From the IMG/VR virus record IMGVR_UViG_3300025584_000284: a DNA stretch of 44,059 nucleotides. One strand, written 5' to 3'. Below, piece by piece: positions 42,105-44,059 of this stretch (position 1 is its first letter; each line of letters opens with the position of its first letter). The stretch is from a virus. The notes beneath the pieces were generated by a model, which worked only from the letters and a program-made list of their open reading frames with translations, did not search any database and was not told where the DNA came from. Position numbers and translations under genes: made by a program.

Positions 42105-42866
42105 TTATGAATTAAATAGATCATCGAAAGCATCTGATGTATCAGATACTTTAGACTTTTCCAATTCGGATGAAACAACAGTATCTACTTTAGTAGTAGA
42201 TTCCTCTTCTTTTGCATCTTCTTTTGGATTCAACCATTCATTCAAAATCTCTGTCATATCATCATATGACAATTCTTGATAGATTTCTGTAATGTCCTGT
42301 TGTTTCTTTACGACCTCTAAGACTGTTGGATCATCAGAAATAGGTGTTTGATTCGGTTTAACCCTAATGTTTGTTTTAGGGAAACTTGCACCTGTTTCTT
42401 CAGCTGATAGAAATTCTACCACGACATCACGACCATTTACTGGGTCTGTGATATCACCATAATCTGGGTCAGCAATAATGGAAAGCAACTCTTGATAAAC
42501 CGTTTTACCAAAACCCCAAAACTTCACACCTTGTGATTCTTCACCTCTAACTATTACTGGAGCAAAAGTTCTCATTTTAGCTTCCAACTTTCGAGAAAGT
42601 TGATAGTCTTCTTTACTACCACTTCCTCTTAGTTTTTGAGCAAACTCTTCAATAGGGTCTGGTCTACCAAAAGAAATTGGTGAAAGATAAGAACGGTTGT
42701 TCAAATTGTAGTGAAAGAATAACTCGATAAAAGGATTATCTTTATTAAAAGCGTAAGGTACGATTCTAATTTGTGTTTTTCCTGGTTGTGGTTTCCAAAG
42801 ACTGGAAGTTCGAGTGTTTGTGGTTTGTAACTGATTTAAGCGTTTTTTAATTGCATTTAAGTCCAT
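42105..42866 (-). CDS. Single-stranded DNA-binding protein (T4 gp32-like)
   Basis: Motifs LWKP...RIVP, FFHY, FWGFGKTVYQEL and GRD; acidic C-terminus ending DAFDDLFNS. Confidence 0.85.
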   Translation of the reverse strand: MDLNAIKKRLNQLQTTNTRTSSLWKPQPGKTQIRIVPYAFNKDNPFIELFFHYNLNNRSYLSPISFGRPDPIEEFAQKLRGSGSKEDYQLSRKLEAKMRTFAPVIVRGEESQGVKFWGFGKTVYQELLSIIADPDYGDITDPVNGRDVVVEFLSAEETGASFPKTNIRVKPNQTPISDDPTVLEVVKKQQDITEIYQELSYDDMTEILNEWLNPKEDAKEEESTTKVDTVVSSELEKSKVSDTSDAFDDLFNS

Positions 42867-42986
42867 TGTTTAACTCCTTATGTATTATTATTATTTGTTA
42901 TTTTTCATTTGTTAATCAAGTGTAACCTTGATACAATAATAAGTATCATACCAATAGCTTAAAATGTGATCTATTTTAATTAGATC

Positions 42987-43059
42987 AAAAAAAAAAGGTT
43001 CATTTCGTTTTTAAGTCTATTATAAGTGGAAACTAAAAATCGGTGAGAACCTTTTTTTT
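42987..43059. terminator. Long imperfect hairpin flanked by A10 and T8 runs; probable bidirectional terminator
   Basis: GGTTC/GAACC closing stem with inner CG-T5/A5 pairing. It sits right after the ncRNA candidate. Confidence 0.6.
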
Positions 43060-43060
43060 A

Positions 43061-43474
43061 AATTTTGGAAATTTTAGGGAATGTAGGATTTGCATACCTA
43101 CAACTTTCTGCTCAGATTTTATTGCCCTTGTACCTAACACCCACCAGTTATGGTGATTCTTCTCTGTCTGGTTAAGACTATCGAAGTGAGTACAACCTCT
43201 GTGTTATTGCCTTATCTCTCTGAGTTTAGATTGATTCAGCCATGAAAGTAGGATTTCAGTCTTACCCTTACCTACAACAAGGTCTAAAGAATTGCTTCTT
43301 TATGTGTTCAGAAAGTACATTAGATGATTGATGCCTCAACTACTTAACCATTCGGCCTTGTAGGTTCACCACGAACTCATCTTGGATTACCTTATGGGCT
43401 TCTAAAGTCTACCCATTATTCGGTCAATTCCATACAGAGTTAATTACTCCCTGTACTTTTCAAAATCCCAAATT
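43061..43474 (-). ncRNA. Candidate large structured non-coding RNA (~414 nt, ROOL/GOLLD-like class unconfirmed)
   Basis: No ORF is present. The 5' and 3' ends pair (AGGGAGU/AUUCCCU plus an outer AU-rich stem). Internal helices are CUUUCUG/CAGAAAG, CUCAGA/UCUGAG, UUGUAC/GUACAA and AAAGAA-GCAA-UUCUUU, plus two GUAGG...AAAUCCUAC hairpins. Confidence 0.65.
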
Positions 43475-43560
43475 GTCAAAAAACTTTTGCATCAACCTTG
43501 ATACAATAATATATATATATATAAAACCTCAAAATACATTTTATTTTTATTTTTTTCAAA

Positions 43561-43975
43561 AAACTTTTGGTGATTCCAGAAGAAGTCGTCTGATCTGATT
43601 TCGGACTGCTAGCAGTGATTCTTAATCCTAATCACCAAAAACTTGTGGTGTCGTGGTTTTCTAACGATTCAAGTCAAAAGACTACCTTTCGGTCAACACC
43701 AATTTTGTGGAAAGGTAAGGACTCGAACCTTACAGAAGCTTTCAATCGGTATAGTAGATTGATTAAATCTAACACCCTACTCACTCCACCATTATCTTGG
43801 TTGATTAATCATCTCAACCTTAACGACATACATTCCAATTCTTTGAGATTTCAAATCGGTAGAAATCTCGAAACCACCACTTCGATTTCAAGGACTCGAA
43901 GCCCGTCCTAATTCTTGTGCCTTTACGCCCTTAGACACTTTTCAATCTTATCTCAATCTAATGAGTCGGGCTTTA
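43561..43975 (-). ncRNA. Second candidate structured non-coding RNA (~415 nt) with T-loop and GNRA motifs
   Basis: It begins just downstream of the promoter at 44012-44040. Stems are AAGCCCG/CGGGCUU, GAGAUUUC/GAAAUCUC, GGUUGA/UCAACC, UAGAUU/AAUCUA, GUAAGG-UUCGAGU-CCUUAC, ACC-GAAA-GGU and the 11-bp UUUUGGUGAUU/AAUCACCAAAA. Confidence 0.6.
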
Positions 43976-44011
43976 TCTAATTCAATCTTTATCATCCATT
44001 TCTTATACTAT

Positions 44012-44040
44012 AATATACAACATATATATGAGAAAGTCAA
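44012..44040 (-). promoter_or_regulatory. Sigma70-type promoter TTGACT-N17-TATATT
   Basis: Read directly, with AAATAAAGC upstream; third copy of this motif. Confidence 0.8.
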
Positions 44041-44059
44041 GCTTTATTTTGAATGTAGT

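What the first reader, a model, noticed from the sequence alone, without database searches (positions are those of the whole stretch)
43061..43474. Large ornate non-coding RNA candidate upstream of ssb
Seen: this ORF-free stretch is visibly more GC-balanced than the flanking intergenic DNA. Its ends pair, it has at least three long-range helices, a GNRA hairpin and two GUAGG-N-AAAUCCUAC hairpins, and it is bracketed by an AT-rich promoter-like region and a terminator-like hairpin. Established: phages encode large structured RNAs of unknown function (ROOL, GOLLD). Inference: it is a member of, or a new class alongside, these RNAs.
Basis: partly seen in the sequence, partly recalled or inferred. 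Interest (0 to 1): 0.7.

Follow-up and report, generated by a model that had tools for sequence, protein, structure and literature searches.

The report
Two-core manA-type phage RNA gene
The gene-free stretch upstream of the phage's single-strand DNA-binding protein gene is a real, strongly conserved folded RNA of about 410 bases. It is not a new family: it is an enlarged relative of the known manA RNA, with a second manA-like core inserted into the first, and it looks like a gene of its own.

Summary
Window 43472-43064 holds a roughly 410-nt RNA. Its ends pair, four long-range helices are present, and so are both GUAGG...AAAUCCUAC hairpins. An AT-rich promoter-like element lies upstream and a terminator hairpin downstream.

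Rfam's manA model (RF01745) matches 43258-43078 above its cut-off (63 bits) and 43455-43276 weakly (18.8 bits).

An alignment of 73 related marine phage sequences shows these are not two tandem copies. It is one fold. A complete manA frame has a second partial manA core (hairpin, P3, junction) inserted into the internal loop of its P8. On this alignment 89.9% of cells pair, against 75.5% in shuffles, with 97 pairs changed on both sides. Two loop pairings also covary.

The unit has a duplicated promoter element and usually its own terminator. The same RNA sits in front of at least ten unrelated genes, so it is probably an independent RNA gene and not an ssb leader.

It is neither ROOL nor GOLLD. 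However, a 2026 preprint reports that manA RNAs build RNA-only cages through loop pairings of the kind that covary here.

Earlier agents of this scan reported two-core manA-type RNAs on other phage DNA (e1-5362657, e1-5763016, e1-5805293). I rate it a new variant of a known kind.

The parts
43494..43565 (-). AT-rich promoter-like element upstream of the RNA. It begins at the U-run that follows the preceding unit and ends in an 18-nt motif (43511-43494). A paralogous element lies upstream of ssb.
   Evidence: Local alignment with 42905-42992 scores 41, against shuffles of 17.5 sd 2.9 with a maximum of 29. The 18-mer occurs exactly twice in the window. The element matches both the RNA-upstream and the ssb-upstream region of relatives. 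The transcription start itself is inferred, not shown.
43489..43504 (-). Small hairpin between the promoter-like element and the RNA (stem 43504-43499 with 43494-43489). It is followed by the motif AAAAGUUUUUUGA, which also follows the upstream RNA candidate at 43574-43561.
   Evidence: Read from the sequence. The stem changes on both sides between relatives (alignment A1). Its role is unknown.
43064..43472 (-). The two-core manA-type RNA, from the P0 5' strand to the P0 3' strand (409 nt). A possible extension, P0ext, pairs 43483-43476 with 43054-43061.
   Evidence: Rfam hits. Consensus fold. Pair counts. P0 duplex test: cognate -7.47 kcal/mol against permuted partners -5.59 sd 0.21, 0 of 200. 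P0ext is only 61% paired and is not supported.
43322..43456 (-). Module A. It comprises P1 (43456-43450 with 43438-43432), the outer-stem 5' strand (43431-43427), P3 (43424-43389) and junction A (43382-43322) with three hairpins. The GUGGUG loop sits on the first of these hairpins.
   Evidence: cmscan reads it as a weak second manA, 18.8 bits over model positions 1-192. Helices are 92-100% paired with many changes on both sides (helices 3-8 and 11).
43286..43316 (-). 5' strand of helix Y (43316-43309) and hairpin 9A (43301-43286, loop 43295-92). Together these correspond to P8 of canonical manA.
   Evidence: Y is 96.6% paired, with 6 of 8 pairs changed on both sides. The 9A loop pairs with the 10B loop (PK1): 99.6% paired, pair types GC36/AU35 and CG54/UA18 (helices 12-14). 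In P-SSM4 the P8 and P9 loops are complementary in the same way, CUGU with ACAG.
43126..43282 (-). Inserted module B, closed by helix X (43282-43278 with 43130-43126). It holds a P9-like hairpin with an invariant 18-nt loop (43275-43248), P3 of module B (43240-43209), and junction B (43206-43135) with three hairpins.
   Evidence: X is 99.7% paired, with 4 of 5 pairs changed on both sides. The module's helices are 81-100% paired (helices 15-24). Most of the 63-bit Rfam hit lies here.
43111..43116 (-). 3' partner of pseudoknot PK2. The linker between X and Y pairs with the loop of module B's P3 (43224-43219).
   Evidence: 100% paired on 73 sequences; 3 of 6 pairs changed on both sides (helix 19). 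Found first as the mutual-information pairs 43222/43113 and 43221/43114.
43078..43110 (-). 3' strand of Y (43110-43103), terminal hairpin 10B or P9 (43101-43083), and the outer-stem 3' strand (43082-43078).
   Evidence: 10B is 100% paired, with 4 of 5 pairs covarying. The outer stem is 100% paired, with GC62 changing to AU11 (helices 4 and 25).
42989..43059 (-). Long terminator-like hairpin followed by a run of ten U. The lower stem runs 43059-43047 with 43001-42989. The interior sequence is conserved.
   Evidence: Fold of the window. Lower-stem columns covary: 43048 with 43000 gives CG43/UA22. The column-based count is poor (52-78% paired) because the region aligns badly. The hairpin travels with the RNA into other gene contexts.
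42867..42992 (-). ssb's own promoter-like element (second copy of the 70-nt element; 18-mer at 42941-42924), leader hairpin and Shine-Dalgarno sequence.
   Evidence: Relatives that lack the RNA (L070, L071) keep this element in front of ssb.
42105..42866 (-). gp32-type single-strand DNA-binding protein gene, the downstream neighbour.
   Evidence: Pfam gp32 PF08804, E 1.7e-13.

Best explanation
This is a self-contained phage gene for a two-core RNA of the manA family, about 410 nt long and read from the minus strand.

One complete manA frame is present: P1, outer stem, P3, three-hairpin junction, P8 and P9. A second, partial manA core (a P9-like hairpin, P3 and a three-hairpin junction) is inserted on the 3' side of P8's internal loop. 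A new helix, X, closes the insert. A pseudoknot between its P3 loop and the linker beside P8 ties it to the host frame.

The RNA is probably made from its own promoter, which is of the same type as the ssb promoter, and stopped by its own terminator. It would then act as a free RNA and not as a switch for ssb.

By homology with canonical manA RNAs, the most likely activity is self-association through its conserved loops into a defined RNA-only multimer. The loops in question are the P8 loop with the P9 loop, and GUGGUG with UAACCA. The role of such a multimer in infection is unknown.

Shown here: the fold, family membership, nested topology, covarying loop pairings, and cassette-like distribution. 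Inferred: the transcript ends, independence from ssb, and multimerisation.
For: Family:
- RF01745 scores 63 bits against a cut-off of 55.2 in the window, and 51.7-73 bits in 11 relatives.
- The upstream half matches the whole model weakly: 18.8 bits here, 22-28 bits in relatives.

One fold, not two:
- RNAalifold on 24, 88 and 73 sequences each time returns the outer stem, Y and X spanning both halves.
- On A2 these helices are 100%, 96.6% and 99.7% paired, with changes on both sides.
- The outer-stem pair changes G-C to A-U in 11 sequences. The rival local partner (column 238) is an invariant C.

Topology against canonical manA: the P-SSM4 and P-SSM2 copies are single-core, 186-198 nt and 182-184 bits.

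Loop pairings:
- PK1 is 99.6% paired and PK2 is 100% paired, and both covary.
- They correspond to the L8-L9' and L3-L8' kissing loops that hold manA cages together in the cryo-EM preprint 10.64898/2026.07.01.735769.
- The L5-L7' pair (UGGU with ACCA) has its counterpart in the invariant GUGGUG of module A and UAACCA of module B. These two loops change together in one four-sequence clade.

Own gene:
- The 70-nt upstream element is duplicated in front of the RNA and of ssb.
- A terminator hairpin with a U-run follows the RNA.
- I saw no overlap between any RNA helix and the terminator core.
- The same complete RNA lies in front of ssb, Hsp20, a 700-aa protein, an SLT transglycosylase, a PNK-type phosphatase and several unknown genes.
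- Only one manA site was found per phage contig.
Against: - No transcript data were available. The start site, the 3' end and the strength of the terminator are all inferred.
- In some lineages (L094, L238 type) no terminator is seen, and a gene with a Shine-Dalgarno sequence starts about 50 nt after the RNA.
- In P-SSM2 the canonical manA is a true leader of purL-hsp20-purM. A cis role therefore cannot be excluded.
- Covariation cannot tell whether a loop pairing forms within one molecule or between molecules.
- The cage report is an unreviewed in vitro preprint on single-core RNAs under 200 nt.
- My mapping of helix numbers to that preprint rests on helix order and loop sequences, because its figures were not available.
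- Related sequences can exceed shuffle controls without any structure. The slid-partner control argues against that here.
Confidence: 0.6

Rival explanations
1. It is a cis-acting leader or riboswitch. The two-core RNA senses a metabolite or protein and sets how much transcription reads through the terminator at 43059-42989 into ssb. Where there is no terminator, it would control translation of the next gene.
For: - manA was proposed as a riboswitch candidate because it lies upstream of non-homologous genes in the same orientation (PMC2864571). The same holds here for about ten gene families.
- The P-SSM2 manA ends 15 nt before purL.
- L094-type loci have a gene about 50 nt after the RNA with no terminator.
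- The A-run before the terminator could pair either with the 5' U-run (P0ext) or with the terminator's U-tract.
Against: - In the window a terminator and a separate copy of the promoter element lie between the RNA and ssb. Relatives without the RNA keep that promoter.
- No mutually exclusive pairing with the G+C core of the terminator was found.
- P0ext is only 61% paired and shows almost no change on both sides.
- No manA ligand is mentioned in any paper the three-term search returned.
- The conserved loops are the ones reported as contacts between molecules in manA cages.
Confidence: 0.2
2. It is two independent manA RNAs in tandem, each folding on its own, as the two Rfam hits suggest.
For: cmscan reports two full-length matches, at 43258-43078 and 43455-43276.
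Against: - The local closures that cmscan proposes are flagged as non-pairs.
- The outer stem, Y and X each join the two halves, and all covary.
- The upstream half has no P9 of its own that pairs with its P8. The downstream half has no outer stem or P8 of its own.
Confidence: 0.03
3. It is a decayed protein-coding gene, or a DNA-level element only.
For: The ORFs in the stretch are short, at most 37 aa. In more distant relatives an ORF of 130-210 codons occupies the position upstream of ssb.
Against: The substitutions keep base pairs and not reading frames: 97 of 141 pairs change on both sides. The region matches a curated RNA family. Its sequence is conserved at 66-89% across contigs, with RNA-type covariation.
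Confidence: 0.01

Closest known systems
manA RNA motif (Rfam RF01745; Weinberg et al. 2010, PMC2864571). Canonical examples are in Prochlorococcus phages P-SSM4 and P-SSM2.
   Same: - The sequence blocks are shared: UGACYGAAUAA, UAAGG, GUGGUG, and the GGUA...AAUCC terminal hairpin.
- The order of helices is the same: P1, outer stem, P3, three-hairpin junction, P8, P9.
- The P8 and P9 loops are complementary.
- It occurs in marine T4-like phages.
- Hsp20 and nucleotide-metabolism genes are neighbours in some loci.
   Different: - It is twice the size: 409 nt against 186-198 nt.
- A second partial core is inserted in P8, with a new closing helix X and a new pseudoknot.
- Scores are 51-73 bits, against 182-184 for the cyanophage copies.
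- The ACCA loop has moved to the tip of module B's middle hairpin.
- The relatives nearest by ssb are not cyanophages apart from one Microcystis phage at 47%.
- It is usually followed by its own terminator.
manA RNA-only cages (Ren et al. 2026, bioRxiv 10.64898/2026.07.01.735769)
   Same: The loop pairs named there as contacts between molecules (L8-L9', L5-L7', L3-L8') have conserved or covarying counterparts here.
   Different: The constructs studied there are single-core and under 200 nt. Nothing is known for a two-core form. In the two-core RNA some of these contacts could be satisfied within one molecule, between the two cores. The mapping is my inference.
ROOL and GOLLD large phage or prophage RNAs
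   Same: All are large, ornate, phage-borne non-coding RNAs. From my own knowledge, these RNAs were reported to form multimeric RNA assemblies, which is now also reported for manA.
   Different: The Rfam models give no match at E up to 10. The helices and conserved blocks are different. The window holds no tRNA gene.
PeSL composite terminator/promoter elements of T4-like phages (Arbiol et al. 2010, PMC2839356; Comeau et al. 2014, PMC4122927)
   Same: The layout is stem-loop with U-run, then an AT-rich stretch, then a promoter-like box. It is repeated on both sides of a cassette that differs between related phages.
   Different: The -35 box is poor. The -10-like box reads TATTAT, which that paper gives for the middle-mode (PmSL) form, but no Mot box was sought here. 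An extra hairpin follows the box. Promoter class and activity are untested.
Glycine riboswitch and other two-aptamer RNAs
   Same: Two homologous cores lie in one transcript and are joined by tertiary contacts.
   Different: Here the second core is nested inside a helix of the first, not placed beside it. No ligand or expression platform is known.

Membership tests
manA RNA (RF01745) | Score at or above Rfam's gathering cut-off (55.2 bits) | tested here: met
   63 bits at 43258-43078 on the minus strand. In 11 relatives the scores are 51.7-73 bits, and 7 of them are over the cut-off.
manA RNA (RF01745) | Helix order: P1 hairpin, then an outer stem enclosing P3, a three-hairpin junction, P8 and P9 | tested here: met
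   Module A together with Y/9A and 10B gives the full order. All helices are 92-100% paired, except 9A (80%) and the middle hairpin of junction A (76-85%), which align poorly.
manA RNA (RF01745) | Conserved loop and junction sequences (CUGAAUAA, UAAGG, GUGGUG, ACCA loop, GGUA...AAUCC) | tested here: met
   All are present, but divided between the two cores. GUGGUG is in A only, AGGUA after the junction is in B only, and ACCA is on B's middle hairpin.
manA RNA (RF01745) | Complementary P8 and P9 loops (the 'pseudoknot?' of Weinberg 2010; L8-L9' of the preprint) | tested here: met
   PK1 is 99.6% paired and two pairs covary. P-SSM4 has CUGU with ACAG.
manA RNA (RF01745) | A single core of about 190 nt | tested here: not met
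   The RNA is 409 nt, with a second core nested in P8. This is why I file it as a variant.
manA RNA (RF01745) | Lies in the 5' untranslated region of the next gene (Rfam type Cis-reg) | tested here: inconclusive
   In the window a terminator and a second promoter element intervene. In L094-type loci and in P-SSM2 it is a leader.
manA RNA (RF01745) | Self-assembly into closed RNA-only oligomers | not testable with these tools
   Only loop complementarity could be checked.
ROOL / GOLLD | Match to the Rfam models of these families | tested here: not met
   No such hit at E up to 10 over 42800-44059, nor at the gathering score over the whole window.
ROOL / GOLLD | Neighbourhood of tRNA genes (from my own knowledge of these families) | tested here: not met
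   No tRNA gene in the window or in 17 related loci.
Riboswitch with terminator platform | Aptamer strand that competes with the terminator stem | tested here: not met
   By inspection, no RNA helix overlaps the terminator's G+C core. The only candidate, P0ext against the A-run, is 61% paired and does not covary.
PeSL cassette boundary | Stem-loop plus promoter-like element repeated at the borders of a variable cassette | tested here: met
   The 70-nt element is duplicated. The cassette is absent from more distant relatives, which have an ORF there; L070 and L071 among them keep the ssb copy of the element. Promoter activity is not testable here.

The most novel reading that the evidence does not exclude
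The two-core RNA is a natural covalently linked pair of manA protomers. Contacts that hold neighbouring molecules together in canonical manA cages (L5-L7', L3-L8') would here be partly made within one chain, between the cores. The remaining free loops (P8 with P9, and the invariant 18-nt loop of the inner P9-like hairpin) would drive assembly into a cage or lattice with different geometry or stoichiometry. Marine T4-like phages would express this assembly alongside their replication genes.
Probability: 0.25. Interest if true: 0.75.

Novelty: new variant of a known kind. Interest (0 to 1): 0.45.

Why it matters
manA has been an orphan RNA since 2010. It was filed as a possible riboswitch, and a 2026 preprint reports that it builds RNA-only cages in vitro.

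This lineage offers a natural experiment: a nested duplication of the core, in which the loop contacts are marked by covariation in well over a hundred marine phage contigs. The RNA is packaged as a cassette with its own promoter-like element and, in most loci, its own terminator.

That has three uses. It argues against a simple switch role for the neighbouring gene. It supplies a ready construct of defined ends for testing assembly. And it shows that the family extends beyond the cyanophage contexts in which it was described.

The finding does not change what kind of thing manA is. Earlier agents of this scan have also reported two-core forms on other DNA.

Tried and rejected
- **DNA search against GenBank phages.** A blastn search of the intergenic region found nothing.
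- **Nearest held virus record.** It has no manA hit, but it is only an 18-kb fragment.
- **tRNA and tmRNA scans.** Empty for the window and for 17 loci.
- **Tandem-copy reading of the two Rfam hits.** Rejected by covariation of the helices that span both halves.
- **A local alternative for the outer stem** (43431-43427 with 43284-43280). Rejected: the A variant at column 67 faces an invariant C.
- **An early idea that GUAC at 43316 pairs with the 5' end.** Dropped in favour of helix Y.
- **TTGACA at 43479-43474 as a -35 box.** Rejected: no -10 box follows, and the adjoining bases (43472 onward) form the P0 5' strand.
- **P0ext.** Not supported.
- **Pairing of module B's first and third junction loops.** The loops are complementary with one wobble, but their variants do not change together.
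- **Pattern scan of bacterial genomes.** It gave one true copy, on a phage-like contig binned with a Pelagibacter MAG. The other six hits are chance matches.
- **Pattern scan of metagenome contigs.** It gave at least 119 copies, but nothing that could be read as a transcript.
- **Literature.** A search for manA, wcaG and riboswitch returned four papers: the 2010 description, the S-CREM1 genome paper and two unrelated engineering papers. I found no paper on a two-core form, but did not search for that term as such.

Full report
**What is there**

The stretch has no ORF longer than 37 aa. It is richer in G+C (0.35-0.42) than its flanks (0.22). It lies upstream of a minus-strand gp32-type ssb gene, followed by recA/uvsX-type and 5'-3' exonuclease genes.

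A scan of the whole window against Rfam gives a single hit: manA (RF01745), minus strand, 43258-43078, at 63 bits against a cut-off of 55.2. A permissive scan adds a weak second full-length manA match at 43455-43276 (18.8 bits, E 0.03) and nothing else credible. The element is therefore on the minus strand and belongs to a described family, not to ROOL or GOLLD.

**Relatives**

The ssb protein recovers hundreds of IMG/VR contigs. The 24 or so closest keep the whole 690-nt upstream region at 66-89% identity. More distant relatives have an ORF there instead.

It also retrieves one phage-like contig binned with a Pelagibacter MAG.

In relatives the ssb-proximal half scores 51.7-73 bits and the distal half 22-28 bits. 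Four phage contigs of 42-120 kb each hold only this one manA site.

**One fold, not two copies**

RNAalifold was run on 24, 88 and 73 sequences. Each time it returned the same nested structure. The single-sequence fold of the window agrees for P0, Y and X (z = -2.05).

I wrote the structure out in window coordinates and counted it on alignment A2, which has 73 distinct sequences:
- 141 pairs are 89.9% paired, against 75.5% in shuffles (0 of 500 reach it).
- 97 pairs change on both sides.
- The covariation score is 0.44, against 0.18 in shuffles and 0.07-0.12 with slid partners.

Three long-range helices join the two halves:
- the outer stem, 43431-27 with 43082-78: 100% paired, one pair G-C in 62 sequences and A-U in 11;
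- Y, 43316-09 with 43110-03: 96.6% paired, 6 of 8 pairs changed on both sides;
- X, 43282-78 with 43130-26: 99.7% paired, 4 of 5 pairs changed on both sides.

An outermost helix P0 (43472-61 with 43064-76) aligns badly column by column. It is supported by a partner-permutation test: cognate -7.47 kcal/mol against -5.59 sd 0.21, 0 of 200.

A mutual-information scan found two further pairings that are not nested, and both hold on A2:
- PK1, the loop of hairpin 9A (43295-92) with the loop of the last hairpin (around 43093-91): 99.6% paired, pair types GC36/AU35 and CG54/UA18.
- PK2, the loop of module B's P3 (43224-19) with the linker at 43116-11: 100% paired, three pairs covary.

**Topology against canonical manA**

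The P-SSM4 and P-SSM2 copies score 184 and 182 bits, are 186-198 nt long and have one core. Their order is P1, outer stem, P3, three-hairpin junction, P8 (outer stem, internal loop, inner stem), then P9. The P8 and P9 loops are complementary, CUGU with ACAG.

In the window, P1, the outer stem, P3 and junction A are followed by Y and 9A, which together are P8. Hairpin 10B is P9, and PK1 is the P8-P9 loop pairing. On the 3' side of P8's internal loop a whole extra domain is inserted. It is closed by X and holds a P9-like hairpin with an invariant 18-nt loop, a second P3 and a second junction. cmscan scores this insert together with the shared P9 as its best hit, and marks the outer stem and P8 there as missing.

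The two cores keep different canonical signatures. GUGGUG is in A only. AGGUA after the junction is in B only. The ACCA loop has moved to the tip of B's middle hairpin.

**Transcription signals and context**

Upstream lies a roughly 70-nt AT-rich element ending in an 18-mer that occurs exactly twice in the window. The whole element is duplicated in front of ssb: alignment score 41 against 17.5 sd 2.9 in shuffles. Relatives without the RNA keep the ssb copy.

Downstream of the RNA is a long hairpin with a ten-U tail. Its lower stem covaries and its interior is conserved. It stays with the RNA when the cassette is found elsewhere.

This layout is stem-loop with U-run, AT-rich stretch and promoter-like box on both sides of a variable cassette. 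It resembles the PeSL elements described for T4-like phages (PMC4122927).

The complete two-core RNA is found in front of many different genes:
- ssb: 132 of 141 viral loci and 46 of 85 metagenome loci that have enough downstream DNA;
- Hsp20;
- a 700-aa protein;
- an SLT transglycosylase;
- a PNK-type phosphatase;
- several unknown genes.

In a minority of loci (L094/L238 type) there is no terminator, and a gene starts about 50 nt after the RNA.

In the two cyanophages the canonical RNA begins 6-9 nt after a perfect sigma-70 promoter. In P-SSM2 it is a leader of purL-hsp20-purM. In P-SSM4 it is followed by a hairpin.

**How it probably works**

Weinberg et al. (2010) proposed manA as a riboswitch candidate with an unknown ligand. 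A search for manA, wcaG and riboswitch returned only the 2010 paper, the S-CREM1 genome paper and two unrelated engineering papers.

It reports by cryo-EM that manA RNAs under 200 nt form RNA-only octamers, decamers and a 60-mer icosahedral cage. These are held by kissing loops between molecules (L5-L7', L8-L9' and, in one variant, L3-L8') and by an L6 GNRA-receptor contact.

If helices are numbered in 5'-to-3' order, the named loops fit the Rfam consensus:
- L6 is GAAA;
- L5 and L7 are UGGU with ACCA;
- L8 and L9 are CUGU with ACAG.

On that mapping, which is my inference because the figures were not available:
- PK1 is the L8-L9' contact;
- PK2 is an L3-L8'-like contact;
- GUGGUG of module A with UAACCA of module B is the L5-L7' contact.

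Covariation cannot say whether these pairings form within one chain or between chains.

I therefore read the element as an independent gene for a two-core manA RNA that most likely self-associates. The identity and fold are close to certain. Independence from ssb is likely. Assembly is plausible but untested. The rival, a leader that tunes read-through into ssb, keeps about one chance in five. No expression platform was found, and a second promoter element intervenes, but leader-like arrangements do exist in the family.

**Novelty**

The family is known, and so is its presence in marine T4-like phages. I found no description of the nested two-core architecture in the papers I read, and I ran no literature search aimed at it. 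Earlier agents of this scan described two-core manA-type RNAs on other phage DNA, including one next to an SSB gene. I did not use their structures; the model here was derived and tested independently.

Noticed in passing
window 43561-43975 (minus strand): A second ORF-free, G+C-balanced stretch lies directly upstream. It has two T-arm-like hairpins (GGUUCGAGUCC type) and ends in a stem plus AAAAGUUUUUUGA, the same tail that precedes the manA-type RNA at 43489-43476. It has no credible Rfam match and no tRNA call. Only L002 shares it. It is the subject of another finding (e1-5771619).
   Followed up: partly
window 43039-43012; alignment A2 columns about 525-570: The interior of the terminator hairpin (CGAUUUUUAGUUUCCAC ... 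AAACUUAAAAA) is more conserved than its covarying lower stem. It stays with the RNA in front of unrelated genes. That is unusual for a plain terminator and suggests a second role, such as a protein site or part of the RNA.
   Followed up: partly
L058, L063, L085, L112, L117, L129, L133, L141, L169 (A2 columns 485-600): In one sub-lineage the usual terminator is replaced by a different conserved element of about 90 nt (GGAAAGUAUCUUUACAG ... GGUGGUGAGG). It has no Rfam match at E up to 1 in L058 and L063.
   Followed up: no
L209 (contig NHJA01000041.1): A contig of the same phage lineage is filed in a MAG named Candidatus Pelagibacter sp. TMED203. It carries ssb at 90% identity, recA and the full RNA. 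This is either a binning artefact or a hint about the host. Another agent's note suggested a SAR406 host.
   Followed up: partly
L205 1556-1729 (P-SSM4, PSSM4_169.1): An annotated 57-aa hypothetical protein lies almost wholly inside the canonical manA RNA and its trailing hairpin, so it is probably a spurious gene call. In both P-SSM4 and P-SSM2 the manA RNA starts 6-9 nt after a 12-of-12 sigma-70 promoter.
   Followed up: partly
L017 1907-2299: In a 120-kb relative the gene just upstream of the RNA encodes a protein with a TonB C-terminal domain (E 3e-11). This fits the TonB-dependent receptor theme noted elsewhere in this window.
   Followed up: no
window 43271-43252: The 18-nt loop of the inner P9-like hairpin (UAAGGGUAA.AC.GAA.U) is nearly invariant in 73 sequences. 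No partner was found for it within the RNA.
   Followed up: partly
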